Virus genome (UHGV): UHGV-1845973
Origin: a virus
Reading direction: 5' to 3' (one strand)
Length of the DNA stretch: 21,770 nucleotides
Made by a program: the position numbers and the translations under genes. Shown piece by piece: positions 2,327-19,166 of this stretch (positions within the stretch are counted from its first letter, which is position 1; each line of letters starts with the position of its first letter). A model generated the notes under the pieces. It made no database searches and was not told where the DNA came from. It worked only from the letters and a program-made list of their open reading frames with translations.

Positions 2327-2381
2327 CAACACCACTTAGGAACACAAAAGGATGTGAATTGGTACATGTTTAACACCAAAA

Positions 2382-3467: not shown

Positions 3468-3483
3468 TTTGTCCCTTGTTTAC

Positions 3484-3918
3484 TCATTGTCGCCATGCAT
3501 TTTTTAACTCAGGAATATCTGCCATTTCAATTAACTTGCGAAGTCCAGCACTGACTTTCCCATTGCCAACCATAGCAAGCCAATCTCTTACAGCTTTCGG
3601 CATGTAGAGCGTTGCAGTTACCGGCTCTTCAACCCTGGCAGGACATCCGCATACAGGCCATTTAATTGACTCCATAACTTCGGATGCCGGGGTGAGGGCG
3701 GGGACATTGAGTATATCTCTACCAGAAAACTGGATAACGATCCGTTCAGCGAGCGAGAGTATCTCACTTTCGGCAAGAATTGATGCCAACTGCGCCTCAA
3801 CAAGAAAGCGACTTGTTGTGTTCAGAGAGTGGCTCTTAGCGCCATTTTTATACGAAACAAAGATTCGATACGCCATAACTCTAATGATTTGTGTTAGAAA
3901 ACTAAAATTAAACCACAT
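3484..3918 (-). CDS. Hypothetical protein with a C-terminal segment resembling a ribbon-helix-helix DNA-binding motif (upstream gene of the module)
   Basis: ORF open from ATG 3918; an alternative ATG at 3876 would give MAYRIFVSY... (131 aa). C-terminal segment TATLYMPKAVRDWLAMVGNGKVSAGLRKLIEMA fits a beta-strand/helix/G-x-G turn/helix pattern. Neither start has a convincing RBS. Confidence 0.5.
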   Translation of the reverse strand: MWFNFSFLTQIIRVMAYRIFVSYKNGAKSHSLNTTSRFLVEAQLASILAESEILSLAERIVIQFSGRDILNVPALTPASEVMESIKWPVCGCPARVEEPVTATLYMPKAVRDWLAMVGNGKVSAGLRKLIEMADIPELKNAWRQ

Positions 3919-4034
3919 AACAACATGTGTGTTAATAGATTTTATTTTACTAAACCTATTGACTAAATCACAAAGTAGGTATTGTTAGTCCGTCAAAAGA
4001 ACCTTCACGCCGCGCCCGAATTTAGGGCTTAACC

Positions 4035-5732
4035 GTGAATAAAAACATTCAGCCAGCTCGTGATCGCGAGCGCGAGATTATGAATCGGGCGGCAAGCGTC
4101 ATGGCTATGACCGTCGATCCGACCACCGATGCAGCAGGCAACATGATTGCTGACCAGGCAGTAATGATGGAAAACCTGGATAAAGCAATCCAGAAAGTGC
4201 CTATGTTTGAAGGCGTAAATCCAGAGGTCGCTCGTCAGATCACTGGTGGGTGGGCTATGTCTCTGCATGAGTATAAACGTCAACATGGTCATTACCCGGC
4301 AAGTGACATCCTGGCGAACGCACACATGGCTCTTGAACGCCTAATGACTGAATGTGCCAGTGATACCCACGAAGGCACGGGTAAGGCAATGTTTGAGTCT
4401 GTCGCGCAATCAATGCGTAGCTCTGACGGCGTAATGAAAGTTGCTCAATATGCTGCTCTAATTCTGCCTGCCTCTCTGGGCGCTGCTACCAGTGATGCCT
4501 GTACTTTTGTTCCTTGTGATCGTGACGAGTCAAATATTTATGAACTGGTCAACGTAGCAGGCACAAAATTCGGCACCTTCAAACAAGGTGACGAACTGAA
4601 TATGCAGTCAGCTGGTGTTTATTCTCAAATGAAGCGCCTGTATACCCTTTCCACTAAAGGGGATGGCAGCACCAAAACCTTCCAGTTCGACATCCAAAAT
4701 TTTGAGGGACAATCCTGCCCGCTTCGCGCTGGTTATAGCAAACTGCTGATCAACCGCAAACCGTCCAAAGTTGACGACGGCGATGGCAACCTTTATTTCA
4801 ATGCTAAAGACAGCAAAGGTAAAGCTTTCTCAGCGACTGCCAAAGTCGCCTATGACACTGGTGTCATTGACATTACATTTACCCAGGCTCCGCCAGAAGG
4901 TACTGAAATTGCTGTTCAGGTCGAAATTAACATCGAGCGCAATCCAAGCCTGATTCCTGTGATCAACCAGGCTATGCGTAAGTACGAAGTTCGTCCGTCC
5001 CAGTACGTAATTGCTTCCGAACACACGGTAATGTCCGCATCCGATTTAAGCCGTGAGCACGGCCTTGAATTAGCGGCACTTCAGTTCTCCGCGATGCGTA
5101 ACTGGATCTCCCATGAAACCGACATCATGCGTCTGCGCACCCTGGTATTCCATACCGTTTATGGTCGTGAATTTGATGTGGCTCTGCCGGAAGCTCAAAA
5201 CTATGAGTCCTGGGTCGGCCTCCTGCGTCACGTAGTAAACGCTCTGTCTCAAGAAATGGCAAATCGTACCCTGACAACGGGTATTCGTGGCGGCTTTGCT
5301 GGTGGTGACGCCGCGAACTTCCTGCGCTCTCTGCCTCCACAGCACTTCCAGATCGCACCAGGTTACGTTCAGTCGCCGTATGTACAGTACATCGGCACCC
5401 TGTTTGGCACGATTCGTATTTACGAAGTGCCGCAACCTGTCTGTGAGCAATTCCAGGCACAGGGATATGACTTCGGGCTGGATGACATCTTCTTCTATGG
5501 GCGTGGCGAAGGCATCGGTAAAGCCGGTCTGATTGCTGGTGATGCAGTCCCAGCAATCCCTTACGTGCACGAAACCAATCCGTCTCTCGTTAACCGTACC
5601 ACTCTCTGGGGCAGTGCCATCAACGAAGTACATCCTCGCAACGGTGAAAACTACTTCACCCGCCTGCGTCTGACTCGCGCCAAAGAAGGTGCTATCGACA
5701 TGCTGACAGGCAAGGTTAACGAAAAAAAGTGA
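4035..5732 (+). CDS. Putative major capsid protein precursor (large head protein)
   Basis: 565-aa ORF with GTG start, the first gene of the long + strand structural operon, immediately upstream of an Ig-like protein gene and the sheath gene. The functional call rests on position and size only. Confidence 0.55.
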   Translation: MNKNIQPARDREREIMNRAASVMAMTVDPTTDAAGNMIADQAVMMENLDKAIQKVPMFEGVNPEVARQITGGWAMSLHEYKRQHGHYPASDILANAHMALERLMTECASDTHEGTGKAMFESVAQSMRSSDGVMKVAQYAALILPASLGAATSDACTFVPCDRDESNIYELVNVAGTKFGTFKQGDELNMQSAGVYSQMKRLYTLSTKGDGSTKTFQFDIQNFEGQSCPLRAGYSKLLINRKPSKVDDGDGNLYFNAKDSKGKAFSATAKVAYDTGVIDITFTQAPPEGTEIAVQVEINIERNPSLIPVINQAMRKYEVRPSQYVIASEHTVMSASDLSREHGLELAALQFSAMRNWISHETDIMRLRTLVFHTVYGREFDVALPEAQNYESWVGLLRHVVNALSQEMANRTLTTGIRGGFAGGDAANFLRSLPPQHFQIAPGYVQSPYVQYIGTLFGTIRIYEVPQPVCEQFQAQGYDFGLDDIFFYGRGEGIGKAGLIAGDAVPAIPYVHETNPSLVNRTTLWGSAINEVHPRNGENYFTRLRLTRAKEGAIDMLTGKVNEKK

Positions 5733-5836
5733 TGGTGGCGAACGTGTCGGTATCACCAACGTCACTTGACGTAGATGAAGGTGAAACTATCGCCGCGAAC
5801 ACTTCAAAGGCACAGAAAAAAACAAAGCAGAAGTAA
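5732..5836 (+). CDS. Small -1 frame ORF (34 aa) overlapping the capsid stop; possible frameshift extension or coupled small gene
   Basis: ATG overlaps the capsid TGA (TGATG). Encodes MVANVSVSPTSLDVDEGETIAANTSKAQKKTKQK; the VSVSPTSLDVDEGETIA part looks like the first beta-strands of a Big_2 domain. An A_AAA_AAG heptamer sits directly before the capsid stop. Confidence 0.3.
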   Translation: MVANVSVSPTSLDVDEGETIAANTSKAQKKTKQK

Positions 5837-5845
5837 GGCAAAAAC

Positions 5846-5866
5846 ACGCCCCTGATTAAGGGGCGT
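5846..5866 (+). terminator. GC-rich hairpin (8-bp stem ACGCCCCT/AGGGGCGT, 5-nt loop) without a U-tract
   Basis: Perfect inverted repeat read directly from the sequence. It is followed immediately by RBS AGGAG and the ATG at 5880, so it is more likely an attenuator or RNA-stability element than a full terminator. Confidence 0.3.
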
Positions 5867-5879
5867 TCAGGAGAAAAGA

Positions 5880-6158
5880 ATGGCAAACATTCAAGTAACT
5901 ATCACGCCATCTGACGCAACAGACAAATCTTTCACTGTTGAGTCAGATCACCCTGAAATTGTCCGGGTTGATGGCACTACATGTACCGCTCTTAAGGCCG
6001 GGCAGGCAGTGCTGACAATCAAAACAAATGACGGCAATAAAACCGCACAGTGCACAGTCACTGTTAGGGAGGCACATAAAAGCGTAAGCACCGTCAGTGT
6101 TGAACCAACTACGAAAGAAGTAACCGTAGGCGATAACTTCACGGTAAGCCAATCCTGA
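5880..6158 (+). CDS. Bacterial Ig-like (Big_2-type) domain protein, candidate capsid decoration protein
   Basis: ITPSDATDKSFTVESDHPEIVRVDGTTCTALKAGQAVLTIKTNDGNKTAQCTVTV matches the Big_2 core pattern. RBS AGGAG 6 nt upstream of the ATG. Confidence 0.65.
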   Translation: MANIQVTITPSDATDKSFTVESDHPEIVRVDGTTCTALKAGQAVLTIKTNDGNKTAQCTVTVREAHKSVSTVSVEPTTKEVTVGDNFTVSQS

Positions 6159-6162
6159 TCAG

Positions 6163-6189
6163 AGGCTGCCCATTAACCGTGGGTAGCCT
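6163..6189 (+). terminator. Hairpin (10-bp stem with one G-U pair, 7-nt loop) followed by a T/C-rich stretch
   Basis: AGGCTGCCCA ttaaccg TGGGTAGCCT followed by tgcctcgttctctcgcttt. Lies between the Ig-like gene and the sheath gene. Confidence 0.3.
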
Positions 6190-6225
6190 TGCCTCGTTCT
6201 CTCGCTTTAGAGGATAAGAACCAGC

Positions 6226-7884
6226 ATGAATAAGATTAGTTTTTCGGTAGGGCAGGCAGCTGGCGTTGCTGTAATGTCAGTAAATGCTGACGCTACCCTC
6301 ACCAATACCAGCGGTGGCGCATCCGTCTTTGCTGGGCTTGTAATATCGCGTCGTGGCGCACCGGGTAAGGTACTGAAAGTTGACGATACGACTTATCAAA
6401 GCGTATTAGGTTCACCGATTCACCCTCGCCAGGGCGCGGCATTTGAACCATATCGCCACGTGGAGCGTGCAGTAAAAGGCGGCTCTGGATATGTCGTTCG
6501 AGTTTGCGCTAAAGACATGAAGGTGCCGGGTATTTCTGTTTCCGTTGTGGGCAAAGCAAAAGCGGCAAAGGCGAGCAAAGAACTTTCCGTTGAACCTACT
6601 GAAACCACAGTAAATCCAGGTGACACATTAAGCGTTGGTGTTGCTTCAACTGCAACGACTCAATCAGTGACCTTCACACCCAAAGAGACGCCCCAGATTA
6701 AAGGTGAAGAGAAGGCATTATTCTTCATCAAAGATGGTGATGCATCTCAAAATCGCACGTTATCACTAACTCGCGATGATGAAGAAAGCGAACTCTTTAC
6801 GCTGACGCTGAAAGAAAAACAAACCGATGGGTCCATTGAGGTGCTGGAAAGCCACCAAGTGTCTTTCAATCCAGAAGGCACCAACGACATGGGCCAACCA
6901 GCATGGATTCCGACACTGCTTGAAAGCCAGTCCACTCGCATTGGTGCCGTACTGGCAGATAATGCAGAAGCATCCGCTGCTCAACTCATTTTTGAGGATG
7001 TAGCTTTTGAAGGTGGTACTGATGGAAATCTGTCCGAAATTAACGCTGCAGACTATCTGGAAGCATTAAAGGTTCTCGAAGCTTCAGAGGTTAATTACAC
7101 CGCATTGCTGTCACTGGGTTGTTATGACGCATCCGCCTTAGCCGCAATCAAAAAGCTGGCTGAAGATGTTCGCGTAGACATGTTCTATGACCTGAAGGGC
7201 AACCAGACACCTGAAAACGCTATTTCAGAAGCGAAAAGCCATAGTTTTGGCGGCTCACATCAACCAAGCCGTTACTACTTCCCGCTCTCCTGCCGAGATA
7301 CCTTCACTGGGATGAATGTCGTCTATGGCATTAGTTGCGACGCATTCGTAGCAAAAGCAAAAGGGGTAGCGCTGGTACCGGATGTTGGTGGTTGGCATTA
7401 CGCACCGGCAGGTATATCACGCGCGATTATTGATCGACAGAACATTGCCCGAATTCCAAATATCGGTGCAGTTGATCGTGAAGCGTTCGTTCTTGCGCGC
7501 ATTAATCCGGTTTCAGTTGCTGCTGATGGGTCCGTTTACATTGACGACTCTTTAACAACTTACAGCAAAAACAACTATCTGCGATTCCAGCATGTGTCTT
7601 CCTTGATGAACGCCATCGCCAGAGATTTCTATGAAGTAGCTCAGGCGATTAAGCACGAACCGGATGGCATTACCAAAGAAACGCTAATGAAAGCAATGAC
7701 TGAATTGCTTGACCGTTACGTTGCAGCCGGTGCGCTGGTTACTCCACGTGACAAGTCCCAGGGTGAAGATCCATACGTTGTTCAGGTTGTCCAAAAGGAC
7801 ATCGATCTGTGGGAAGTGTCCTGGTCTGTTTGTCCGACCGGTACAGCTCGCCGAATCGTCGGTAAGCCAATTCTGATGCGCTGA
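6226..7884 (+). CDS. Tail sheath protein (contractile tail) with an internal Ig-like segment
   Basis: 552 aa. The C-terminal region GWHYAPAGISRAIIDRQ...ARINPVSVAADGSVYIDDSLTTY...LRFQHVSSLMNAI follows the conserved sheath C-terminal pattern (SPAG..RG / INP / V..GD.T / RINVRRL in T4 gp18-type sheaths). An N-proximal segment ELSVEPTETTVNPGDTLSVGV is Big_2-like. Confidence 0.8.
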   Translation: MNKISFSVGQAAGVAVMSVNADATLTNTSGGASVFAGLVISRRGAPGKVLKVDDTTYQSVLGSPIHPRQGAAFEPYRHVERAVKGGSGYVVRVCAKDMKVPGISVSVVGKAKAAKASKELSVEPTETTVNPGDTLSVGVASTATTQSVTFTPKETPQIKGEEKALFFIKDGDASQNRTLSLTRDDEESELFTLTLKEKQTDGSIEVLESHQVSFNPEGTNDMGQPAWIPTLLESQSTRIGAVLADNAEASAAQLIFEDVAFEGGTDGNLSEINAADYLEALKVLEASEVNYTALLSLGCYDASALAAIKKLAEDVRVDMFYDLKGNQTPENAISEAKSHSFGGSHQPSRYYFPLSCRDTFTGMNVVYGISCDAFVAKAKGVALVPDVGGWHYAPAGISRAIIDRQNIARIPNIGAVDREAFVLARINPVSVAADGSVYIDDSLTTYSKNNYLRFQHVSSLMNAIARDFYEVAQAIKHEPDGITKETLMKAMTELLDRYVAAGALVTPRDKSQGEDPYVVQVVQKDIDLWEVSWSVCPTGTARRIVGKPILMR

Positions 7885-7891
7885 TTTATAA

Positions 7892-7913
7892 CCCCCGCTA
7901 AATGATGCGGGGG
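7892..7913 (+). terminator. GC-rich hairpin (7-bp stem CCCCCGC/GCGGGGG, 8-nt loop) downstream of the sheath gene, no U-tract
   Basis: Perfect inverted repeat 8 nt after the sheath stop. It is followed by the RBS GAGAGAGG of the next gene. Confidence 0.3.
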
Positions 7914-7927
7914 AGAGAGGTTTGAAT

Positions 7928-8662
7928 ATGAAAAATTATACTGCTGATCCTTTTATGCGTGCGATTTTCGGTTCTGGCTGCTTTGAAAGCGGTGATAAAT
8001 CCACGCAGGACAATAATGATAACGCCATGCTGGAAAGCGCAGGACAGAAAGGAAAGGACACTCAACCAAAGCCCAAAGACGACATTGAAACCGCGATGAT
8101 GGAAGCGGTTGAATCCCGTGCACAAGGTGATATGCGCAGCCTGGCAGCTTCCATGCTTGCTGGTTGGGTTGAAGATGGTGATCCGGAGGCTGACTCATTT
8201 GATGCATTAGCAATCACTATGGCTGGCCTGGCTGATATCGATGAAGACACCGATTTCACCGATGAGCAAATCGATGCTTATAACGATGCACTCGCAGCTC
8301 TTGCTGATGCAGCTGTTGCGCTTGGCGCTGATCAGGATGATGTAACCGAAATGATCGACGATGAAGATGACTCAGCTGCCGAACGTGTTTATGACGCTCT
8401 TTCCGAAAGCGACACCGACATGATGGAAACAGCTATTGCCATTTACACCGTTGCTGGTGGTGATAGCGCAATGCTGGAAGCGGTACGTAAAAAAGTGGTT
8501 CGTGATGGCAAGGTAACCATCATCCGTAAACGCCCGCGTCCTCGCCGCATGACGTCATTGCAAAAACAGGCGCTGAAAAAAGCACGCCGCAAAGCACATA
8601 CATCCGTAGCGAATATCAACCGCAAAAAATCAATGCGCATTCGCAAAAAACGCGGTTTGTAA
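7928..8662 (+). CDS. Hypothetical virion-associated protein with a strongly acidic body and a strongly basic C-terminal tail
   Basis: 244 aa from ATG 7928 (RBS GAGAGAGG upstream). About 190 D/E-rich residues (e.g. MIDDEDDSAAE) are followed by the basic tail RKRPRPRRMTSLQKQALKKARRKAHTSVANINRKKSMRIRKKRGL. Confidence 0.55.
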   Translation: MKNYTADPFMRAIFGSGCFESGDKSTQDNNDNAMLESAGQKGKDTQPKPKDDIETAMMEAVESRAQGDMRSLAASMLAGWVEDGDPEADSFDALAITMAGLADIDEDTDFTDEQIDAYNDALAALADAAVALGADQDDVTEMIDDEDDSAAERVYDALSESDTDMMETAIAIYTVAGGDSAMLEAVRKKVVRDGKVTIIRKRPRPRRMTSLQKQALKKARRKAHTSVANINRKKSMRIRKKRGL

Positions 8663-11141: not shown

Positions 11142-11363
11142 ATGTGTGCTGTAGGGAAAGGTTTACGTTAAATGTGTGCTGCCGGGAAACCCCATTGCTC
11201 AAGATGTGTTGTAGAGGGAATGGTAATGGCAACATGTGTGCTGGAGGGGAATTTCGCATGTAAAGAGCGTCATTTATCCCTCCAGCACACATCTGAAATA
11301 AGCAATCCTCTGAAATTCCCTCCACCACACATCCAGACATGAAACTATCCCTTCAGCACACAT
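11142..11363. repeat. incA-like iteron array (7 P1-type RepA-binding iterons) downstream of repA
   Basis: Four copies in one orientation (ATGTGTGCTG[T/C/G]AGGGAAA-like at 11142, 11172, 11204 and 11234; the third is degenerate) and three in the opposite orientation (TCCCTCCAGCACACAT-like at 11277, 11317 and 11348). The core matches the P1 iteron consensus GATGTGTGCTGGAGGGAAA as I recall it. The last iteron overlaps the repA stop codon. Confidence 0.8.
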
Positions 11364-12224
11364 TTAATCTGTTGGTTTAAGTTTCGGATTCCGAGAGTGA
11401 ACGATAATGAAGTTTTCACGACCTTGCTTTTCAATGGTGCAATCGAGATAACCTATTGTTTTTAACTGGTCTATAGCTTTTTTTATCGTTCTGTTTTGCT
11501 CACTTACCGATGACATCAAGGCTAATCTTTCACGTATTCTGGCAAATGAAATAGGTATTGGACGTGCCGGGAGGCTTTCTATAAAGGTATATATGGCCTG
11601 GGCTGCTTCTTTTTTAGGTAAAGCGCGAAGTGCGTGTTGCTGTAGAAGCACCCGATAGTCTAGCTGGAAGATTTCCCATAACTTGGAATCAGCCTCCAGT
11701 TCAACGACATCTGTTTCAAAGTCAAAATATCCCGTTTTAAGCAGGCCAGTATTGTAGCTTCCACGAGCACTTTTCCCTCTTTTGAATGAGATGCCTTTGT
11801 TGCGTAACCGACCTAAAGAATCGTGGATCGTGTTTCTTAATTTCCCATCAAGTCGCTTAGATGGAAATCCGCACGCCTTTGCAAATTCTTGAAAAGAAAG
11901 GCGAATTGTATTCGATGATAAGCCATACTTGCTAAATGAGTAGATTACCCCAATCCAGACTTTGAAATCAGTATCCATGTCCAAGCGAGGGCCAGTGATC
12001 TTGATGTTGTCGTAGCCTTCTGCTTGAGCTATTTCCAATTTGGAAAAAACAGATGATGCATCTATCTCGTTGTTTTCACCCTGTTTTTTAGTTGGTTTAG
12101 GGACGAAAACACCAAGCCGCATAAGTGCGACAGGTTGAACAGTATTGTTCGAATTAACTGTTAATTCTTTAGCCTTGCTTTCAATGTCAGCATAAAGAAT
12201 ATCAGAGATAAATGACTTATCCAT
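11364..12224 (-). CDS. repA: RepA replication initiator, P1 / IncY-type iteron plasmid family
   Basis: 286 aa beginning MDKSFISDILYADIESKAKELTVNSN..., which I recognise as P1 RepA-like, and flanked on both sides by P1-type 19-bp iterons. ATG at 12224; the ORF track adds one upstream TTG codon. Confidence 0.9.
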   Translation of the reverse strand: MDKSFISDILYADIESKAKELTVNSNNTVQPVALMRLGVFVPKPTKKQGENNEIDASSVFSKLEIAQAEGYDNIKITGPRLDMDTDFKVWIGVIYSFSKYGLSSNTIRLSFQEFAKACGFPSKRLDGKLRNTIHDSLGRLRNKGISFKRGKSARGSYNTGLLKTGYFDFETDVVELEADSKLWEIFQLDYRVLLQQHALRALPKKEAAQAIYTFIESLPARPIPISFARIRERLALMSSVSEQNRTIKKAIDQLKTIGYLDCTIEKQGRENFIIVHSRNPKLKPTD

Positions 12225-12262
12225 CAATAAGTTACCGTCATGTTGTGAATAAAGTTTACGAC

Positions 12263-12495
12263 AGTGGATATCCGGCTTTTTTTCCCGTCAGCACACATCC
12301 TACATCCCGTCAGCACACATGTAAAACCCTCCAGCACACATATTTTTCCCGTCAGCACACATCGTTCTCCCTCCAGCACACATCTGAATAGTGGTTAAAG
12401 CCTTATGTGGCGCGGCCTGAAGAGCTACGGGATCTATTTGGTACTATATGGATCTAATCAGGATCTATATATTGGATCTATCCTGTGGATAAAAA
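12263..12495. other. oriR-like replication origin: iterons, GATC-heptamer cluster and DnaA box
   Basis: Perfect DnaA box TGTGGATAA at 12484..12492. Four GATC sites inside GGATCTA heptamers at 12431, 12451, 12462 and 12475. A degenerate DnaA-like box AGTGGATAT at 12263. This DnaA box / methylatable GATC repeats / 5 iterons / repA layout matches the P1 R origin as I recall it. Confidence 0.7.
12283..12385. repeat. incC-like origin iterons (5 direct repeats) covering the repA promoter region
   Basis: Five copies of CCC[G/T][T/C]CAGCACACAT at about 12283, 12305, 12326, 12348 and 12368, regularly spaced at ~21-22 bp and all in the same orientation, immediately upstream of repA. Confidence 0.85.
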
Positions 12496-12578: not shown

Positions 12579-13400
12579 TTGAACATTCCAAAATTCCCAT
12601 TGCCTTCCCGTCCTGAGACAGAAATTCAGTTCCACGCCCCTACCGTGAAGGATGCGCTGAAATATTCTGACCTGAACCCGGCAGAAGATGAGGCAACTAC
12701 TACAGAGTACCTTAACTCTATGCAGGATGGTGAAATTAACGACAGTGCTTACTGGACAGTCCAGGATCGCAGAACTGCCCTTTGGTGGATATTTGTTAAT
12801 TCGCGCCCCGATGCAGTAATGACCTACTCCTATGAGTGCAGTCACTGCGGTAATACGCATCATGCAGATATTAACCTGAGCGACCTGGCCCAAACAGTAG
12901 AAATACTCACTGTACCTCCTTACGTGAAAACCAACGTACCAGTAAATGGAGTACCAACTGACTGGATACTTAAACCATTAACCGGGAAAGGTGCGGAACT
13001 CCTTGAACGAATGCGAGCGTCACTTCCTGATATGAAAAGTCCCGAATACAGTGCTGGCGTAGCACGGATGCGAATTGCTGAACTCGCTTTATGCACGGCG
13101 CTTGAAGACGATCCGGAGGACTTCACGCAGGCCGCTAACCGACGCTTTGACATCATTGAAAGCATGGCGCTTGAAACCGAATTTACTCCGCTTGTGGCTC
13201 GCATACAGCTTATGCAAAAAGACCTACGTCACGGCCTGAAAATGTCTATTGAGAGAGGCTCAAGCCGACTGATCCTGCCTCCGCAACATTGCAAAAACGC
13301 TAAGGAGGGTGCAGATGTGACAACCACACTGTACGTCCCCTTTCTCAATAGAGAGTTTATCCCATCAATTAGATCTGAATGGATGGCTAACCATTATTAA
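12579..13400 (+). CDS. Hypothetical protein with a Cys/His cluster, immediately upstream of the tape-measure gene
   Basis: 273 aa. TTG start with strong RBS GGAGG 6 nt upstream. Contains YECSHCGNTHHADINL. Possibly a tail assembly or tail structural protein by position. Confidence 0.5.
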   Translation: MNIPKFPLPSRPETEIQFHAPTVKDALKYSDLNPAEDEATTTEYLNSMQDGEINDSAYWTVQDRRTALWWIFVNSRPDAVMTYSYECSHCGNTHHADINLSDLAQTVEILTVPPYVKTNVPVNGVPTDWILKPLTGKGAELLERMRASLPDMKSPEYSAGVARMRIAELALCTALEDDPEDFTQAANRRFDIIESMALETEFTPLVARIQLMQKDLRHGLKMSIERGSSRLILPPQHCKNAKEGADVTTTLYVPFLNREFIPSIRSEWMANHY

Positions 13401-13414
13401 CAACCTGACTCTGT

Positions 13415-16400
13415 ATGGATATCAGCCCATTAGTGACGTTGAACAATTACCGCAATGGCGAGCACTCCATATGTCAAAAGCCCTGGAAGAAAAATACAAA
13501 GCTCAAGCCGGGAAACGTTGATCGCGCTGGTAAAAGAGAGGTTATTTTGAAAGAGAATAAAGACCGTATCGCAATAATTGACGCTATTCAGGAAGCGAGC
13601 ACAAACGAACTTAAAGCTCTTGCTGAGGTAAAAGACGCCATTCTTTCTGGGGCAAGCACCATAACTCAACAGGACGAAAGGCAAGGCAGAGTTAGCAACA
13701 GACTATCACGCAGGCGTAAAGAGTACGAGCAAAGTACATCTGATAGCGTTAGAGATGTCCAAACTAACCCATATAAAAAACGTCTCCCTGCTAAAAAGGA
13801 GAGGGCACCGATAAACCAAACCGTGGACCGCTCTATCGTTGCAACGAACACACCAGAAAGTGTTCGCTCCGTGCAATCACGTCAGACCATCCGAAAATCG
13901 GACGGTTTTATACCGGTAGCTGCTAATTCAGCCCCTCTTGAACCACAATCCCCCCAAAGTCTAAAAGGCCCGCTGCGGGATAGTAATGGACGTTTTGTAT
14001 CCCAAAAAAGCAATGAGGATGTAGCCAGAAAAAAAGAATTGCAGAACGCACGTAAAGCCGACGCAAAATTACAAGCTGGCTTTCTCAGAAAGCTAGGTTC
14101 CATTATGGGGGTAGATGGCAATCGGTCTTCCAGTGAAGAGTCTTTAACAAATGCAGCTGGTGTCGGTGCTGGTGGGCCGTTCTGGATGGCGGCTCGTGGC
14201 ATGTACGACATAACTAAAGAGATCACAGGTAAAGCAGAATCTCTTAAAGAATGGGTAGAAAAGGGGAAAAAAGAAACATCAACCTCGAAAGCAATATCAC
14301 CAGTAATTACTTATCCGGCGGCGGTGAATTCTCAAAAAGCAACATCTGCAAAAGCGTTCAATAACGCTGTTGAGACAAAATCCGCACAAGCAGTAGAAGA
14401 GCAAACCAAAATCCTTCAGACCAATGACAACAAAATAATTGATGGTCTGGAAAATGTTTCTGACGAGATAGTTAAGCTTCGGAAATCAGTGTCTTCTGGA
14501 AATAAGTTCGGCTTAAGTGATCTCTGGAAAAATCGAGCAAGCAGAAGAAATAAAATCAATATTGGTGATCAGACGGGAAAAAATAAACGGAACAAATCGA
14601 AAAGGAAAGGACGCAATCTTGGGAAAAAAGCACTCTCCGCTGGCGAAAAAGTTGCTGCCGGTAGCGCTGCGGCTGGCACTGGTGTCGGAGCAGCAAAAGT
14701 AGTTAAAAATAAGATCAGCAAACCCAAAGATGTAAGCACTATCAGCGATACATCAAAGGGGATTGCAAAGGAAACAAAAAATACTGCTAAGGCCGTGAAG
14801 TCAGCTGGTGTTGTGGCTGAAGATGCCACCATTAAAACCGGCGAAGCCATTGCAAAGAAAAAAACTGAATCTGTAGCCCTCAAAAGTGCTGCAAAAATAG
14901 GTGTTAAATCAGCAGCATCCACAGCGGCAAGAGCGGTCCCTATCATCGGTTCGCTGGCAATGGCTGGATATGACGCCATAGATGGTTACACAGATACAGA
15001 GGCGCAAAAGGCAGCCTTTGGATTAAGTGACGATAATGCTGTATCCGAACAGCAAAAAACGGCTTACGCAACAGCTAATGTGCTCGATATGGGGGGCTTG
15101 GTGTCGGGCGCAACGAACTTGATAGGGAAAGGAATTTCTGCGCTAGGATTTGAAAGAGCAGGTGAAAAACTTCAGAATTTTGATACCGGAGATATTGCTC
15201 GTGGTGTTAACGGCGCGGTAGATATCACCAAATCTGTTTTTGGTAGCCTTAAGGATACATTTTTATCCACTGATGAAAACACGAAACAAGTAAAAAAAGC
15301 TGTTGAAGACGGCACCAAAAAAACTGTCGATGCGATTCATTCTCTAGGTGAACAATTACAAGGTGGGCGTAATGGCGAGGATGGAGTTGGTGAGCACGGG
15401 TATACTTCTCCAACTGAATTTAGTGCACCTGCCAACAACACCATTGCAGCGGATCTGAATATTGGCGGCAGCAACGCTAAAAACCGCAATTACCGAAATA
15501 ATAATCTCGGCAATCTTGTTTTTGCCAACCAGGAAGGGGCGACGCTGGAATCGCCAAATGCAAAAGGTGAACAACGTTTTGCGCGATTTAACACACCTGA
15601 AGAAGGGATCAGGGCACTGGCAAACCAGGTTTCCAGCTATTACAACGGCACCAGTGCCGCAGCGGGATATCAGAAGTTACAGACGGTATCCAGCATCATT
15701 TCAAAATGGGCACCGCCAAATGAGAACAATACTAACCAATATATTGATAACGTCAGTAAATATCTTGGTGTATCGCCTAATGAAAAAATAGATGTCAGCA
15801 AACCAGAGGTTATGACGCAATTAGTTCGTGCAATTGCGACGAAAGAAGGCGGAAATCCGGCAGTTAATAATGAGTTCATTAAGAACGCACTTGGAGCATT
15901 TAACACAAACACTGGTCGATGGGAGGGACAATTCTCTGACGAAACATTGGCGCGGATTAATAAAATTCAGAAAGAAAATGGTGGTCAGCTAATTGCCCGC
16001 GATTCGCAATATAGTGTTGGTCGCAAGGTAAAATATGCTAATGGAAAATCTCCAGCTCAACCAGTTTTGAATGCCGTTCCGACAGCAACACAACAGCCAA
16101 TTGAGGTTGCACAACATGCCCAGGCAGTCAAAAAGCCACAAAAAACAGGTAACCAACCACAACCGATTAATCCAGAGAACGCTGATGTTAATACCGGCTC
16201 TCCATCGAGTTTGCTTGAGCGGTTAATCACAATAAATGAAAGCGGAATCAGTGGTGCAAGTAATTTATTTGGCGGCGCGGCTACCAGCCTTGCTGGAACA
16301 AGTCTGGACCTGGTAAAGGATTTTGCGTTGGCTACTTCGTTTGGTTCTATATCTTCGCTTTCCGAAAAAGCGAAAGGAATGGATCAGGCTCTTACTGAAA

Positions 16401-17359
16401 AGATATCCGGCTTAACCGGTAAATCTTTTGGATTTAAAATAGCTTCTCAAGTGGCTGATATCGCAACAGCCATACAACAAAAACGCACTGTTAATCACGA
16501 TACAGAAATCATTGATCTACTTCCGGGAGATCAAGTATCCCCTTCTACTCCGAAAACCCCACAGCAGGAGCAGGCTCTAGCAATCAGCCAGGCTATGGAG
16601 GGCTTTTCATCTGCAGCGCCAGCACCGAAAACCCCACAGCAGGAGCAGGCTCTAGCAATCAACCAGGCTATGGCGGGAGCTGCGCCAGTAGTTACCTCTG
16701 GAAAACGAACTATCACGGCACCAAGTGATGTGCAGATTTATGACAACGGCTACAAGGTGGTTACAGGTGAGGATAAGAGCTTCTTTGGTTCGCTATTTGA
16801 TTCCACGGTGTCAGGGCTTAAACAGACAGGAACCGCAGTAATTCCTGCCGTTGGCGATAACCTTTCACGACTTGTTGGGGGGATTGATAGTACAGGGATA
16901 TTGAACGATCTTGTAATGCAGTCTACTGGGCAGAATAGTGCGATTGCGCGAGCTATTAGCCCATTAACAAGAAATGTTGGAGACTGGCTGAATGGGGGGA
17001 TTCAACAAACCGCTAATAGCATTAGGGGAATAGCAACTGGTGCCAATAACGCCATATTTGGCTCTGCTTCAGCTGTGCAAGAACCTTTTCTTGCTATGCC
17101 GCCACAACTCCCTACTGTAACCGATCTCGCACGAAGCGGAATAAGACAACCATTAACTACTGACACTATAAATAACGATCCTGCTATGTTGAAGGCGCTG
17201 GATAACATCTGCTCTATCCTGAACGATCTGCTGAATGTGAACAAGAACAATACAAAAGGCGATCCGGATAATGTTGTCAAAACATCGCAGCCGCAGCCGC
17301 GACCACGTGCGAGCACAACTATTAATGACCAGTCGCTGGATGCTCTGCTTGAGGATTAA
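13415..17359 (+). CDS. Tail tape-measure protein with an embedded globular domain
   Basis: 1314 aa. Long Ala/Lys/Gly-rich low-complexity helical regions, central hydrophobic Gly-rich segments, and a position between tail genes and baseplate genes. A globular segment (about nt 15480..15900) differs from the rest. Confidence 0.8.
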   Translation: MDISPLVTLNNYRNGEHSICQKPWKKNTKLKPGNVDRAGKREVILKENKDRIAIIDAIQEASTNELKALAEVKDAILSGASTITQQDERQGRVSNRLSRRRKEYEQSTSDSVRDVQTNPYKKRLPAKKERAPINQTVDRSIVATNTPESVRSVQSRQTIRKSDGFIPVAANSAPLEPQSPQSLKGPLRDSNGRFVSQKSNEDVARKKELQNARKADAKLQAGFLRKLGSIMGVDGNRSSSEESLTNAAGVGAGGPFWMAARGMYDITKEITGKAESLKEWVEKGKKETSTSKAISPVITYPAAVNSQKATSAKAFNNAVETKSAQAVEEQTKILQTNDNKIIDGLENVSDEIVKLRKSVSSGNKFGLSDLWKNRASRRNKINIGDQTGKNKRNKSKRKGRNLGKKALSAGEKVAAGSAAAGTGVGAAKVVKNKISKPKDVSTISDTSKGIAKETKNTAKAVKSAGVVAEDATIKTGEAIAKKKTESVALKSAAKIGVKSAASTAARAVPIIGSLAMAGYDAIDGYTDTEAQKAAFGLSDDNAVSEQQKTAYATANVLDMGGLVSGATNLIGKGISALGFERAGEKLQNFDTGDIARGVNGAVDITKSVFGSLKDTFLSTDENTKQVKKAVEDGTKKTVDAIHSLGEQLQGGRNGEDGVGEHGYTSPTEFSAPANNTIAADLNIGGSNAKNRNYRNNNLGNLVFANQEGATLESPNAKGEQRFARFNTPEEGIRALANQVSSYYNGTSAAAGYQKLQTVSSIISKWAPPNENNTNQYIDNVSKYLGVSPNEKIDVSKPEVMTQLVRAIATKEGGNPAVNNEFIKNALGAFNTNTGRWEGQFSDETLARINKIQKENGGQLIARDSQYSVGRKVKYANGKSPAQPVLNAVPTATQQPIEVAQHAQAVKKPQKTGNQPQPINPENADVNTGSPSSLLERLITINESGISGASNLFGGAATSLAGTSLDLVKDFALATSFGSISSLSEKAKGMDQALTEKISGLTGKSFGFKIASQVADIATAIQQKRTVNHDTEIIDLLPGDQVSPSTPKTPQQEQALAISQAMEGFSSAAPAPKTPQQEQALAINQAMAGAAPVVTSGKRTITAPSDVQIYDNGYKVVTGEDKSFFGSLFDSTVSGLKQTGTAVIPAVGDNLSRLVGGIDSTGILNDLVMQSTGQNSAIARAISPLTRNVGDWLNGGIQQTANSIRGIATGANNAIFGSASAVQEPFLAMPPQLPTVTDLARSGIRQPLTTDTINNDPAMLKALDNICSILNDLLNVNKNNTKGDPDNVVKTSQPQPRPRASTTINDQSLDALLED
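16550..16680 (+). repeat. Tandem ~75-bp duplication inside the tape-measure gene
   Basis: CCGAAAACCCCACAGCAGGAGCAGGCTCTAGCAATCA[G/A]CCAGGCTATGG[A/C]GGG occurs at 16550 and again at 16625 with two mismatches (protein repeat KTPQQEQALAI[S/N]QAM[E/A]G). Confidence 0.75.
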
Positions 17360-17364
17360 TACTG

Positions 17365-17739
17365 ATGCTTTACGAAATAGACGCAAGACTTCAAACGAAT
17401 GAGAGCGGTGTCATTATTGCAGAAGGAAGTACCGCAGCATGGATGGCCCGACTTGACGAGTGGCTACGAACCCCTGAAGGGAGTGTTTATGGTTTACCCT
17501 CTTGGGGGAGTCCAATGGAAGAATTTAAGCATGAACCATTCGGCTCTGAAACTTCGCACATAGTTGAAGTGGCTATTGAAGGGAGAATGATGAAAAAACT
17601 ACGACAAGACTTGCCAGGTTTGGATGTGCAGGGGATTCGTTGCACATCAATTTCTGAAGATTCTTTATTAATTAGTTTTTATGCGAAAGGTGGGAGCATG
17701 GATATTGTTATGCAGAAATCAAGTGGGGTGGGCGCGTGA
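17365..17739 (+). CDS. Baseplate wedge protein, gpW / gp25-like
   Basis: 124 aa. The segment WLRTPEGSVYGLPSWGSPMEEF resembles the conserved LRTP.GSR core of the P2 gpW / T4 gp25 family. RBS GAGGA 9 nt upstream. Lies directly after the tape-measure gene. Confidence 0.6.
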   Translation: MLYEIDARLQTNESGVIIAEGSTAAWMARLDEWLRTPEGSVYGLPSWGSPMEEFKHEPFGSETSHIVEVAIEGRMMKKLRQDLPGLDVQGIRCTSISEDSLLISFYAKGGSMDIVMQKSSGVGA

Positions 17740-19166
17740 CGATTACAGAATTACTGGACAAATTTAACGCCAAGTTAAACGAAAACACATGGTGGTCACG
17801 ATTTGTAAATAGTCAGTTTGTGCAGATGCACGCTATATTCGGAGCGCAGCTTATTTATATTGCCCGTACATTTGCAAGCCGCGGCCTCACTGAGGGACTT
17901 ATTTCAACGGCAACGCGTCGCTCAAGTATTTTAGCGGTTGCTGAAGACCGTAGCTACGTAGGGCGATTTGTTAGTGCTTCATACGGAACAACGTCTATAA
18001 CCAATAAAACTGATCGGGATATTACGTTACCAGCCGGGGCTGAATTGCTTGCCAATGACCAAACACCTTTGGCAATTATTAACAGTGTTGTAATTCCTGC
18101 TGGAGGAACTGTTTCTGGCGTAGAAACTAAACAGCATGAAGCTGTTAGCATTACATTTGATATTGAGAAGGAAACTTTATTTCTGACATTGTTGCTTTCC
18201 AGAGAGTTAACAAAAGAAGTCTCTAGCCTGGATGTTTATGTTATTACAGATGGAGTAGAAGAAAAATGGACATATAACCCATTATTTAGAATGTCCAGAG
18301 ACAAGAGTAAGCACTATTCATTGGCATATAAACCTACAGAACAACTTGGAGTCAAGTTTGGTGATGGTTCTATGGGTATGATGCCTCCAGCAGGCTGTCA
18401 GGTTCGAATCGATGTTATGGCTAGCCTTGGCGACTATACTTTGGCTGAAGGACAAAAGTTAGAACCGGCTGGAAATATCGCTCAATATGCGGAGTCACTA
18501 GAGTTTAAAACTGATTCGATCATTACCGGTGGTAGTGGTATGGAAACTACAGAAGAAACTCGAAATCGTGCTCAGTATTATGTTGCATACGATGAACAAG
18601 TGGTATGGGGCGGTGATTATCGCCAATTCATTCAGAATGTTGTTCATGGAACTTCATGGTTGAACGTTTGGGGCGAAGCGTTACAAGAGAAAATAACTGG
18701 GTTTGACGTTCGAAACATCAACAAAATTTTCTTTTGCGGACATAAGCCGGGTGTAAGCCAGGCTCAGCTAAAATCAGAAATACTGAAAGCCCTGGAGAAT
18801 GTTCCAAATGAGTTGAACAAGCGGTTCGAGTATGTAGATACAAATGAACAGCCATTTACTATAAAATTTATAGGTATTGCACGTAAAAATGTTCTGATAG
18901 ACGATGCTCAAAATGCTATTAAAGCAGCGTTGGAAGATAATTTTGGCCGTGATTCGTCATCATTCAGTTTATTACTACAGAGTGATGATGATTCCCAGCA
19001 ATGTTATGCACAGGTAAAAGTTAAAGATATTTGGCGAGTAATAGAGTCTCTGGATATGTTTCTGTCTTACGACATAACAATACAAAATATGAAAGATGCT
19101 GTTTACTTTAATGACTTCATTTATCTTAACGTAAAATCTTCAACGTTCAGCATTTCTTACCCGTAA
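17736..19166 (+). CDS. Baseplate J-like protein (P2 gpJ / T4 gp6 family)
   Basis: 476 aa. GTG start overlapping the upstream stop (GTGA). The N-terminal region ...ILAVAEDRSYVGRFVSASYGTTSITNKTDRDITLPAGAELLANDQ fits the Baseplate_J pattern. Conserved W then J gene order. Confidence 0.6.
   Translation: MTITELLDKFNAKLNENTWWSRFVNSQFVQMHAIFGAQLIYIARTFASRGLTEGLISTATRRSSILAVAEDRSYVGRFVSASYGTTSITNKTDRDITLPAGAELLANDQTPLAIINSVVIPAGGTVSGVETKQHEAVSITFDIEKETLFLTLLLSRELTKEVSSLDVYVITDGVEEKWTYNPLFRMSRDKSKHYSLAYKPTEQLGVKFGDGSMGMMPPAGCQVRIDVMASLGDYTLAEGQKLEPAGNIAQYAESLEFKTDSIITGGSGMETTEETRNRAQYYVAYDEQVVWGGDYRQFIQNVVHGTSWLNVWGEALQEKITGFDVRNINKIFFCGHKPGVSQAQLKSEILKALENVPNELNKRFEYVDTNEQPFTIKFIGIARKNVLIDDAQNAIKAALEDNFGRDSSSFSLLLQSDDDSQQCYAQVKVKDIWRVIESLDMFLSYDITIQNMKDAVYFNDFIYLNVKSSTFSISYP

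What the first reader, a model, noticed from the sequence alone, without database searches (positions are those of the whole stretch)
15480..15900. Globular domain embedded in the tape-measure protein
Within the otherwise low-complexity helical tape-measure protein there is a compact, composition-distinct segment (…NRNYRNNNLGNLVFANQEGATLESPNAKGEQRFARFNTPEEGIRALANQVSSYYNGT…IISKWAPPNENNTNQYIDNVSKYLGVSPNEKIDV…). Tape-measure proteins of contractile-tailed phages sometimes carry cell-wall hydrolase or binding domains used during injection. This segment does not show the canonical lytic-transglycosylase motif, so it may be a different enzymatic or wall-binding fold.
Basis: inference. Interest (0 to 1): 0.4.

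Follow-up and report, generated by a model that had tools for sequence, protein, structure and literature searches.

The report
Cell-wall-cutting domain inside phage tape measure
The segment is a real, folded cell-wall-degrading enzyme domain of a recently solved type (phage Enc34 endolysin), built into the tail tape-measure/injection protein of a D6-like plasmid-prophage of E. coli; it sits where the related phage P1 carries a different wall-cutting domain, which is a neat but unsurprising case of module exchange.

Summary
Residues ~688-850 (nt 15476-15964) of the 1314-aa ORF 13415-17359 form a compact all-helical domain. The conserved module runs to residue 866.

- **Origin.** The window is 100% identical to E. 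coli plasmid pB2C_96, a phage-D6-like, P1-related phage-plasmid. The ORF is the D6-type ortholog of P1 Sit, the putative tape-measure protein, and is already annotated "transglycosylase".
- **Domain identity.** It is not an SLT domain: there is no Pfam hit, while P1 Sit hits SLT at 2.2e-26. It belongs to the Enc34-endolysin / PM2-P5 lysin family (PDB 7q47, E 1.4e-15; Foldseek probability 1.0). That family has measured muralytic activity on E. coli peptidoglycan.
- **Active site.** The proposed catalytic residues are kept: E811, Y776, W765.
- **Conservation.** The domain is the best-conserved part of 26 divergent Sit-like proteins. These lie in conserved tail-gene synteny across Enterobacterales.
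- **Parallel case.** T7 gp16 (SLT) and Kayfunavirus gp16 (Enc34-type) show the same exchange.
- **Likely function (inferred).** Local peptidoglycan digestion after the protein is expelled from the contracted tail.

This is a new member of a known kind, of low-to-moderate interest. One oddity is a clade-specific RNNNPGN to RNNN[L/I/F]GN change.

The parts
13415..17359 (+). sit-like gene (putative tape-measure / 'tail injection transglycosylase'), 1314 aa as annotated (EW998_RS24450, WP_032323032.1)
   Evidence: ORF list and translation. It is 94.6% nt and 88% aa identical to phage D6 gp087, noted 'similar to P1 gene sit'. PGAP annotation is. phrog_7182 matches at E=0.
13547..13549 (+). probable true start codon (TTG, residue 45 of the annotated ORF)
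   Evidence: AGAGAGG lies 6 nt upstream, while ATG 13415 has no Shine-Dalgarno sequence. The phrog_7182 profile begins at residue 45 and several of the closest homologs start at the equivalent residues. This is an inference.
14837..15307 (+). Gly/Ala-rich hydrophobic block (aa 475-631), the only part clearly shared with P1 Sit
   Evidence: 43% identity to P1 Sit aa 379-523, E 3e-29. It matches phrog_2533/24683/21630. The only hydropathy peaks of the protein are at aa 499-522 and 561-579. It is the second most conserved region in the Sit-like family.
15476..15964 (+). Enc34-type (PHA02564 / PM2 P5-like) muralytic domain, aa 688-850
   Evidence: PDB 7q47 at E 1.4e-15 and 9vvp_L at 3e-13. The family profile scores 2.4e-23 and 4e-31. 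AF2 core pLDDT is 76-95 with six helices. Foldseek top hit is 7q47 at E 3e-8, probability 1.0, TM 0.60-0.64, with no other PDB hit below E=1.
15494..15514 (+). RNNNLGN motif (aa 694-700), a clade-specific variant of the family's RNNNPGN
   Evidence: Pro is present in at least 90% of alignment A3. All 27 Sit-like sequences (window plus 26) have L, I or F here, while most other embedded or free homologs keep P.
15707..15709 (+). Trp765, equivalent of Enc34 Trp79
   Evidence: Read from the alignment, where chain numbering is +1 relative to the paper. The position is W/Y/F in all 27 Sit-like sequences. Its role is described in PMC8943055.
15740..15742 (+). Tyr776, equivalent of Enc34 Tyr95
   Evidence: Alignment. 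Invariant in all 27 Sit-like sequences.
15845..15847 (+). Glu811, equivalent of the proposed catalytic Glu131 of Enc34
   Evidence: Alignment. Invariant in A3 with 121 sequences and in all 27 Sit-like sequences.
15965..16012 (+). C-terminal extension conserved only among Sit-like proteins (aa 851-866, end of the ...GRWEGQFSDETL...DSQYS block)
   Evidence: Conserved in alignments. It is absent from Enc34 and the free-standing homologs. AF2 places a helix at aa 842-854 with lower confidence.
17105..17359 (+). conserved C-terminus of the protein (aa 1231-1314)
   Evidence: Conservation rises again at aa 1231-1290 in the Sit-like family. There is weak similarity to the P1 Sit C-terminus, E 0.003.
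12579..13400 (+). pmgB homolog (proposed tape-measure chaperone in P1), directly upstream
   Evidence: phrog_1854 at 1.3e-134. D6 annotation. The proposed role comes from PMC9024508. It is syntenic in 13 further loci.
17365..19166 (+). pmgA and bplA homologs (baseplate wedge proteins), directly downstream
   Evidence: phrog_1896 and phrog_1369 'baseplate protein'. D6 annotation. Synteny.
6226..7884 (+). tail sheath gene, showing the contractile-tail context
   Evidence: phrog_1036 'tail sheath' at 8.3e-197. PGAP 'tail sheath protein'.

Best explanation
The segment is an Enc34-type (PHA02564 / PM2-P5-like) peptidoglycan-degrading domain. It is embedded at about 55-65% of the length of the D6-type Sit protein, the putative tape-measure and injection protein of a P1-related contractile-tailed phage-plasmid.

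**Shown here**
- The domain is homologous to, and predicted to fold like, an enzyme with measured lytic activity on E. coli peptidoglycan.
- The proposed catalytic Glu, together with the Tyr and aromatic residue, is conserved.
- It is the most strongly conserved part of the protein across divergent relatives.
- It occupies the place, in domain order, that an SLT lytic transglycosylase holds in P1 Sit.

**Inferred mechanism**
1. The protein lies inside the tail tube.
2. After sheath contraction drives the tube through the outer membrane, the protein is expelled into the periplasm.
3. The domain folds or is exposed there and cuts glycan strands locally, opening a hole in the murein.
4. The tube tip and the hydrophobic parts of the same protein (aa 475-631) can then reach and breach the inner membrane for DNA passage.

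Which bond is cut is not known for this family. It could be a muramidase, a glucosaminidase or a lytic transglycosylase. The database label 'transglycosylase' is inherited from P1 and is unproven.
For: **Domain identity**
- Sequence matches.
- Predicted fold.
- BFVD matches to virion proteins and to an 'internal virion protein D'.

**Activity of the family**
- Enc34 ORF39 catalytic domain lyses outer-membrane-permeabilised E. coli, P. aeruginosa and H. alvei. Glu131, Trp79 and Tyr95 line the groove (PMC8943055).
- The same triad was noted in PM2 P5 (PMC9502842).
- Here E811 and Y776 are invariant and W765 is W/Y/F in the 27 Sit-like sequences (window plus 26 homologs).

**Selection**
- Domain blocks score 0.56-0.73 identity to the window residue, against 0.07-0.56 elsewhere.
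- In 13 loci from Pantoea, Serratia, Xenorhabdus, Citrobacter, Erwinia, Enterobacter and Rosenbergiella, the domain is 49-62% identical. The N-terminal part is 24-39% and the C-terminal part 30-38% identical.
- Tub-PmgB-Sit-PmgA-BplA-gp16 synteny is kept in these loci.

**Virion and tape-measure context**
- Gene context.
- P1 Sit was detected in virions and is assigned as the tape measure, with an SLT at ~750-900 that is thought to replace a gp5-type tail lysozyme (PMC9024508; PMC12810830).

**Functional equivalence with SLT**
- P1 Sit has SLT at aa 748-867 where the D6 type has the Enc34-type domain.
- Independently, T7 gp16 (SLT at 15-127) and Kayfunavirus LS2 gp16 (Enc34-type N-terminus, no SLT) are 53% identical from aa ~130/157 onward and differ only in that N-terminal domain.

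**Other tape measures with this domain**
- phrog_2276 'tail length tape measure protein'.
- The tape measure of Bordetella phage IFTN9.
Against: - No experiment exists on this protein or on D6 Sit.
- The tape-measure role of Sit is itself an inference. Sit was not resolved in the P1 cryo-EM maps.
- The N-terminal lid region, aa 689-718, is modelled at only pLDDT 52-61.
- That region carries a Pro to Leu change in a motif that is near-invariant in the wider family. This could affect activity.
- How a ~16-kDa folded domain is accommodated inside the tail tube is unknown.
- Similarity to P1 Sit outside aa 487-630 is weak. 'Same position' therefore means same order of modules, not alignable boundaries.
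Confidence: 0.8

Rival explanations
1. The domain is a catalytically inactive derivative that only binds peptidoglycan, anchoring or orienting the ejected protein in the periplasm.
For: The near-universal RNNNPGN motif is RNNNLGN here, and RNNN[L/I/F]GN in the whole Sit-like clade. The loop carrying it is modelled with low confidence. No activity data exist.
Against: The proposed catalytic Glu, the Tyr, E770, N771 and the EGGNP stretch are invariant or nearly so across 27 divergent Sit-like sequences (window plus 26). The aromatic position is always W, Y or F. Dead enzymes usually lose exactly these residues. The substituted residue is not one of the proposed catalytic residues (PMC8943055).
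Confidence: 0.08
2. The domain is enzymatically active but serves mainly another stage. It could help lysis from within as a second endolysin, or act as a structural plug or length-determining element during tail assembly, rather than helping entry.
For: The family was first characterised as an endolysin (PMC8943055). About 800 SSU5-like plasmids carry a related domain in a 'membrane protein' that looks like a lysis enzyme. In D6, no gene in the annotation is labelled as a lysozyme-type endolysin; I ran no sequence search for one.
Against: The domain is fused inside a 1314-aa tail-module protein with no signal or lysis-cassette context. D6 has holin genes elsewhere and a separate CHAP-domain protein that could be its endolysin. 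In P1 and in T7-like phages the equivalent position holds an SLT. In T7 that SLT is known, from established literature (Moak and Molineux), to act at entry.
Confidence: 0.07
3. The host protein is not the length-determining tape measure. It is another ejected virion protein, as suggested by the label 'protein inside capsid D' on P1 Sit in one record. The domain's wall-cutting role is unchanged.
For: The closest solved full-length relative of the domain is a 1295-aa Gp29 (9vvp). It matches T7-like gp16 internal core proteins in size and domain position. No Pfam tape-measure family hits the protein. Sit was unresolved in P1 maps.
Against: Similarity to gp16-type proteins is confined to the lysin domain. 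The gene sits in the tail/baseplate cluster after a chaperone-like gene, in conserved synteny. No other protein of suitable length is known in P1 (PMC9024508).
Confidence: 0.1

Closest known systems
Hafnia phage Enc34 ORF39 endolysin catalytic domain (PDB 7q47; family PHA02564), with Salmonella phage BSPM4 M4Lys
   Same: Homologous domain (E 1.4e-15 by sequence; Foldseek probability 1.0). Both are all-helical with about six helices. Glu131/Tyr95/Trp79 correspond to E811/Y776/W765.
   Different: Enc34 ORF39 is a 26-kDa lysis-cassette protein with a C-terminal two-helix membrane domain. Here the domain is internal to a 1314-aa tail protein, has RNNNLGN instead of RNNNPGN, and carries a Sit-specific C-terminal extension at aa ~851-866. 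Identity is about 30%.
Phage P1 Sit (structural injection transglycosylase; putative tape measure)
   Same: Same gene position (pmgB-sit-pmgA-bplA) and similar size (1140 against 1314 aa). They share a hydrophobic block with 43% identity over 146 aa, and have weak C-terminal similarity. The module order is the same, with a muralytic domain downstream of that block.
   Different: P1 Sit carries a Pfam SLT (GH23-type) domain at aa 748-867 (2.2e-26). The window protein has no SLT and carries the Enc34-type domain instead. The remainder of the two proteins is barely alignable.
gp16-type internal virion (ejectosome) proteins of Kayfunavirus and related T7-like phages; probably PDB 9vvp Gp29 (1295 aa)
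   Same: The same lysin family is fused to a large protein that is ejected from the virion into the cell envelope. It likewise replaces the SLT found in the T7 ortholog.
   Different: There the domain is at the extreme N-terminus of a podovirus head-core protein. The rest of that protein is unrelated to Sit. I could not find the paper behind 9vvp.
Tape-measure proteins with embedded muralytic modules: T5 Pb2, mycobacteriophage TM4 Tmp, and tape measures in phrog_2276 such as Bordetella phage vB_BaM-IFTN9
   Same: The general design is the same: a tail-lumen protein that carries its own peptidoglycan hydrolase for entry (cited in PMC9024508). phrog_2276 and the IFTN9 tape measure carry the very same domain family.
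   Different: T5 Pb2 and TM4 use other enzyme families, as stated from general knowledge and not tested here. In IFTN9 the domain is C-terminal in a 559-aa protein.
PM2 structural protein P5 and vibriophage NO16 GP11 (tailless membrane-containing phages)
   Same: Same fold and catalytic triad, and both are virion-associated (PMC9502842, PMC13552765).
   Different: These are free-standing small proteins of non-tailed viruses.

Membership tests
Enc34-type lysin domain (PHA02564 / PM2 P5-like) | Significant sequence similarity to characterised members or the family profile | tested here: met
   7q47 at E 1.4e-15. The profile of 121 homologs including the window scores 2.4e-23 against 7q47. phrog_873 scores 1.5e-38.
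Enc34-type lysin domain (PHA02564 / PM2 P5-like) | All-alpha, roughly six-helix fold resembling the alpha-lobe of lysozyme, without a beta-lobe | tested here: met
   The AF2 model has six helices and only short bridge strands, with core pLDDT 76-95. 7q47 is the only significant PDB match, with TM 0.60-0.64 normalised to the target. This is a prediction, not a solved structure.
Enc34-type lysin domain (PHA02564 / PM2 P5-like) | Proposed catalytic Glu (Enc34 Glu131) plus Tyr95 and Trp79 equivalents | tested here: met
   E811, Y776 and W765 align to these positions. They are conserved across homologs.
Enc34-type lysin domain (PHA02564 / PM2 P5-like) | N-terminal RNNNPGN motif (my own reading of the family alignment; not named as defining in the paper) | tested here: not met
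   The window has RNNNLGN, with Pro replaced. The same holds for all 27 Sit-like sequences (L, I or F), whereas at least 90% of A3 and most other homologs keep Pro. All other motif residues are kept.
Enc34-type lysin domain (PHA02564 / PM2 P5-like) | Peptidoglycan-degrading activity | not testable with these tools
   Activity has been shown only for Enc34 ORF39 (PMC8943055).
SLT / GH23 lytic transglycosylase (the family implied by the database label 'transglycosylase') | Match to Pfam SLT (PF01464) or related lysozyme-like models | tested here: not met
   There is no SLT hit at E<=1 for the whole protein or the segment. Positive controls hit: P1 Sit at 2.2e-26 and T7 gp16 at 1.7e-31. No GH23 structure appears in sequence or fold searches.
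SLT / GH23 lytic transglycosylase (the family implied by the database label 'transglycosylase') | Product chemistry (1,6-anhydro-MurNAc ends) | not testable with these tools
   The Enc34 study, as far as I read it (Results and first part of the Discussion), reports only turbidity-reduction assays and does not say which bond is cleaved (PMC8943055).
P1 Sit-type tape-measure protein | Gene in the tail module between tube/chaperone genes and baseplate genes | tested here: met
   The order tub-(rep)-pmgB-sit-pmgA-bplA-gp16 is seen in the window, in D6 and in 13 other loci.
P1 Sit-type tape-measure protein | Homology to P1 Sit | tested here: inconclusive
   Only aa 487-630 (43% identity, E 3e-29) and a weak C-terminal stretch (E 0.003) align. 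The two fall in different PHROGs, 7182 and 2533.
P1 Sit-type tape-measure protein | Extended, mostly helical protein whose length sets tail length; present in virions | not testable with these tools
   Single-sequence AF2 was uninformative, with mean pLDDT 37.6. Virion presence is shown only for P1 Sit (PMC9024508). No tail-length genetics are available.
T7 gp16-type internal core protein | Homology along the ~1300-aa body of gp16 | tested here: not met
   Matches to gp16-type proteins cover only query aa ~722-833. The gp16 body is conserved between T7 and LS2 but has no counterpart here.

The most novel reading that the evidence does not exclude
The Sit-like clade has replaced the otherwise near-invariant proline of the RNNNPGN lid motif by Leu, Ile or Phe, and has added a conserved ~35-residue C-terminal extension (aa ~830-866). 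These could be adaptations of the enzyme to life inside a tail tube. One possibility is a lid that keeps the enzyme inactive or partly unfolded while packed in the lumen, and that allows rapid refolding and activation once it is expelled into the periplasm. That would make this a regulated, 'spring-loaded' variant of the lysin rather than a simple fusion.
Probability: 0.1. Interest if true: 0.4.

Novelty: new member of a known kind. Interest (0 to 1): 0.2.

Why it matters
**Annotation.** The finding corrects an annotation. D6-type Sit proteins occur in 136 full-length plasmid copies in PLSDB and in many Enterobacterales genomes. They are labelled 'transglycosylase' by analogy with P1, but they carry a different enzyme family whose bond specificity is unknown.

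**Module exchange.** SLT and Enc34-type lysin domains appear to be interchangeable cassettes in virion proteins that cross the cell wall. This is seen twice independently: P1 against D6 tape measures, and T7 against Kayfunavirus gp16. It supports a role at entry for a family so far studied mainly as an endolysin.

**Practical value.** It offers natural chimeras for testing what such domains contribute to host range or to infection of non-growing cells. The practical value is modest, and none of this would surprise a phage biologist.

Tried and rejected
- **Pfam and NCBIfam** gave no meaningful hit for the protein or the segment. The weak DHQ_synthase and terpene-synthase hits are below threshold and were ignored. 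PADLOC gave none.
- **First word-indexed homolog search** returned almost only near-identical fragments. A profile search and the exhaustive search were needed.
- **Recent horizontal insertion visible in base composition:** rejected. GC is 0.40-0.48 across the domain, like its flanks.
- **Pro to Leu/Ile/Phe change as a general mark of domains embedded in large proteins:** rejected. Most long proteins with an internal copy keep RNNNPGN. The change tracks the Sit-like clade, apart from a few other long proteins.
- **Single-sequence AlphaFold2 of aa 45-1244**, run to test 'the rest is helical', was too poor to use (mean pLDDT 37.6).
- **Tandem Repeats Finder** found nothing relevant in the gene. 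A two-copy 75-nt duplication was found with the repeat finder instead.
- **Literature.** The D6 genome paper (Gilcrease and Casjens 2018, PMC5800970) is not held. I therefore could not check whether the authors already noted the non-SLT nature of D6 Sit. No paper was found for PDB 9vvp.
- **Weak archaeal matches** (L025, L026; 30-33% over 67 aa, E values relative to candidates only) were treated as probable chance and not pursued.
Full report
**What the window is.** The 21.8-kb window is 100% identical to plasmid pB2C_96 of E. coli B2C (NZ_CP035876.1). The sit-gene stretch used as query (nt 13415-17359) is 94.6% identical in nucleotides to Escherichia phage D6. D6 is a P1-related phage whose prophage is a circular plasmid.

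It carries the tail and baseplate module of a contractile-tailed phage:
- major capsid protein, 4035-5732
- tail sheath, 6226-7884
- tube proteins
- pmgB, 12579-13400
- the long ORF 13415-17359
- pmgA, bplA and gp16 homologs

A plasmid rep gene is inserted in the middle. The long ORF is annotated 'transglycosylase' by PGAP (WP_032323032.1). Its D6 ortholog, 88% identical in amino acids, is 'tail injection transglycosylase, similar to P1 gene sit'.

**Checking the observation.** It is a real domain.
- phmmer against all PDB chains returns two hits. One is the catalytic domain of the phage Enc34 endolysin (7q47, E 1.4e-15, aa 688-817). The other is the N-terminus of a 1295-aa 'Gp29' (9vvp_L, E 3e-13, aa 690-829).
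- PHROGs gives 'endolysin' (phrog_873, 1.5e-38). It also gives a 'tail length tape measure protein' family that contains the same module (phrog_2276, 1.7e-25).
- AlphaFold2 on aa 670-880 with 121 homologs gives a six-helix core with pLDDT 76-95 (aa ~719-849). The N-terminal loop is less certain and both flanks are disordered.
- Foldseek against the PDB finds 7q47 (E 3e-8, probability 1.0, TM 0.60-0.64). Nothing else scores below E=1.
- Against predicted viral structures it finds 'virion proteins' and an 'internal virion protein D'.

Protein composition is mildly distinct, with more aromatics and higher entropy. Nucleotide composition is not.

**What the family is.** Cernooka et al. (PMC8943055) showed several things about the Enc34 ORF39 N-terminal domain (family PHA02564).
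- It lyses outer-membrane-permeabilised E. coli, P. aeruginosa and Hafnia.
- It places Glu131, Tyr95 and Trp79 where GH73 and GH23 enzymes have their catalytic Glu and substrate-positioning aromatics.

In the parts of the paper I read, only turbidity assays are reported and the bond cleaved is not stated. The same fold and triad were recognised in structural protein P5 of PM2 and relatives (PMC9502842). They were also seen in virion protein GP11 of vibriophage NO16 (PMC13552765).

Reading the HMMER alignment, where chain numbering is one higher than the paper's, the equivalents here are E811, Y776 and W765. The family is very large. There are 6823 50%-identity cluster representatives at E<=1e-3 and more than 4700 90%-identity clusters in a profile search. 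None has a Pfam assignment.

**The host protein and the domain exchange.** P1 Sit (1140 aa) hits Pfam SLT at aa 748-867 (2.2e-26). The window protein and D6 gp087 do not. The two proteins share only a Gly/Ala-rich hydrophobic block and a weak C-terminal stretch. The block is at window aa 487-630 and P1 aa 379-523, with 43% identity.

P1 Sit is a virion protein by mass spectrometry. It is taken to be the tape measure, and its SLT is thought to replace the missing tail-lysozyme domain of the gp5 needle (PMC9024508). It was not resolved in recent cryo-EM maps (PMC12810830). The D6 type therefore has the same module order as P1 Sit, but with a non-homologous wall-degrading domain.

A cleaner instance of the same exchange exists in podoviruses.
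- T7 gp16 has SLT at aa 15-127.
- The Kayfunavirus LS2 ortholog has the Enc34-type domain there and no SLT.
- The two proteins are 53% identical from residue ~130/157 to the end.

The 1295-aa Gp29 of 9vvp is probably such a protein. This is an inference from length and domain position, since no paper was found.

**Conservation and distribution.** The exhaustive search found 26 full-length or near-full-length long proteins (1095-1455 aa) with the domain at a comparable internal position; a 27th Sit-like representative, P0141, is a 688-aa fragment and was left out of the alignment. Aligned with the window protein, the domain is the most conserved region. It scores 0.56-0.73 identity to the window residue per 30-aa block. 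The hydrophobic block scores 0.45-0.56 and most of the rest 0.1-0.35.

E811, Y776, E770, N771, R691, R694, the three Asn and G699/N700 are invariant. W765 is always W, Y or F.

A scan of one genome per species found 15 Sit-like loci (L008-L022) among 19 matches, on contigs of 4.9-156 kb, most of them about 80-105 kb. They come from Pantoea, Serratia, Xenorhabdus, Citrobacter, Erwinia, Enterobacter, Rosenbergiella and Chimaeribacter. In 13 of them the order Tub-PmgB-Sit-PmgA-BplA-gp16 is kept. In these loci the domain is 49-62% identical and the N- and C-terminal parts of Sit 24-39%.

In PLSDB, 136 plasmids carry a copy covering at least 80% of the domain query. About 800 further plasmids, mostly ~110-kb Klebsiella, E. 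coli and Enterobacter plasmids, carry a more distant copy under a gene labelled 'membrane protein'. That is presumably an Enc34/M4Lys-type lysis enzyme.

**A clade-specific peculiarity.** In at least 90% of the family the N-terminal motif is RNNNPGN. The window, D6 and all 26 aligned Sit-like proteins have L, I or F instead of P. I tested whether this goes with being embedded in a large protein. It does not: most long proteins with an internal copy keep the proline. Its meaning is unknown. It lies in the loop that the Enc34 authors suggest may act as a lid over the groove.

**Most likely mechanism.**
- Shown: domain identity, predicted fold, conserved active-site residues, strong purifying selection, and the tail-module context.
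- Taken from the literature on relatives: muralytic activity of the family, and the virion location and tape-measure assignment of P1 Sit.
- Inferred: after sheath contraction the protein leaves the tube lumen and the domain digests peptidoglycan locally. The hydrophobic blocks of the same protein then help form the passage through the inner membrane.

D6 has holin genes and a separate CHAP-domain protein that could be the endolysin. The Sit domain therefore need not serve in lysis.

The rivals are each given 0.1 or less:
- an inactive binding module
- a role at lysis or in assembly
- a host protein that is ejected but is not the tape measure

**Comparison with what is known, and verdict.** The domain meets the tested criteria of the Enc34/PHA02564 family except for the proline of the RNNNPGN motif. 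It fails the test for SLT/GH23, the family implied by its database name. The host protein is a P1 Sit-type protein by synteny and partial homology. Its tape-measure function is not testable here.

Tape measures and ejection proteins with built-in wall hydrolases are well known: T5 Pb2, TM4 Tmp, P1 Sit and T7 gp16. This lysin family is already catalogued in tape-measure PHROGs. It is a new member of a known kind, of low-to-moderate interest (0.2). The useful take-home points are the mislabelled enzyme family and the repeated SLT to Enc34-type cassette exchange.

Noticed in passing
window 11142-11368 and 12280-12388 (flanking rep, 11364-12227, minus strand): The plasmid replicon sits inside the tail gene cluster. 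About 12 iterons with core TCCC(T/G)(C/T)CAGCACACAT flank the rep gene. Five lie at 21-22-bp spacing upstream of rep and look origin-like. Seven lie downstream, four in one orientation and three in the other. This is reminiscent of P1 incC/incA.
   Followed up: partly
window 16550-16602 and 16625-16677: There is a 75-nt-spaced direct duplication, 96% identical, encoding PKTPQQEQALAI(S/N)QAM twice. It lies in the most variable part of sit (aa ~1030-1100), which phage D6 lacks. Window and D6 are only 55% identical over aa 901-1100, against 97-99% over the N-terminal 900 aa except aa 632-687, which are 91% identical.
   Followed up: partly
window 13415 vs 13547: The annotated ATG start of sit has no Shine-Dalgarno sequence. 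A TTG at 13547 (residue 45) has AGAGAGG 6 nt upstream and coincides with the start of the PHROG profile and with the N-termini of several of the closest homologs. The first 44 residues may not be translated.
   Followed up: partly
L003 (Escherichia virus LS2) 4411-8298 vs L027 (T7) 2596-6552: T7 gp16 and Kayfunavirus gp16 are 53% identical from aa ~130/157 onward but have unrelated N-terminal wall-degrading domains, SLT against Enc34-type. Kayfunavirus records still label the protein 'peptidoglycan lytic exotransglycosylase'.
   Followed up: yes
PLSDB hits H82-H101 (about 110-kb Klebsiella/E. coli/Enterobacter plasmids): About 800 plasmids, probably SSU5-like phage-plasmids, carry a ~41%-identical copy of the domain under genes labelled 'membrane protein' or unannotated. 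These are presumably Enc34/M4Lys-type endolysins with a membrane anchor.
   Followed up: no
L006 (phage D6) 19271-19756: D6 gp111 is labelled 'baseplate hub subunit and tail lysozyme' in RefSeq. It is a 161-aa protein whose only Pfam hit is CHAP (2.7e-7). It is more likely an amidase/endopeptidase-type endolysin than a tail lysozyme.
   Followed up: partly
L002 (MH422554.1, Punavirus P1) 2367-5789: In this P1 record, Sit is labelled 'protein inside capsid D'. That is a T7-gp16-style name, apparently transferred through the shared lysozyme-like domain.
   Followed up: no
L008 (CALWLV010000256.1): An 11-kb contig that is 96-99% identical in protein to this D6-like tail module is filed in a metagenome bin named 'uncultured Roseburia sp.'. 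This is almost certainly a binning error.
   Followed up: no
window beyond ~20566 vs NZ_CP035876.1: The 100%-identical match to pB2C_96 spans 22,070 nt of the record for 21,770 nt of window, in two pieces. Gene coordinates agree up to 20563. A ~300-nt difference therefore lies in the tail-fibre gene at the window's end.
   Followed up: no
L025 (Halorubrum vacuolatum) and L026 (Natrialbaceae MAG), match at 8001-8192 / 5186-5377: There are weak matches, 30-33% over 67 residues, of the N-terminal part of the domain in two haloarchaeal contigs. The E-values are relative to the candidate set only, so these are possibly chance.
   Followed up: no
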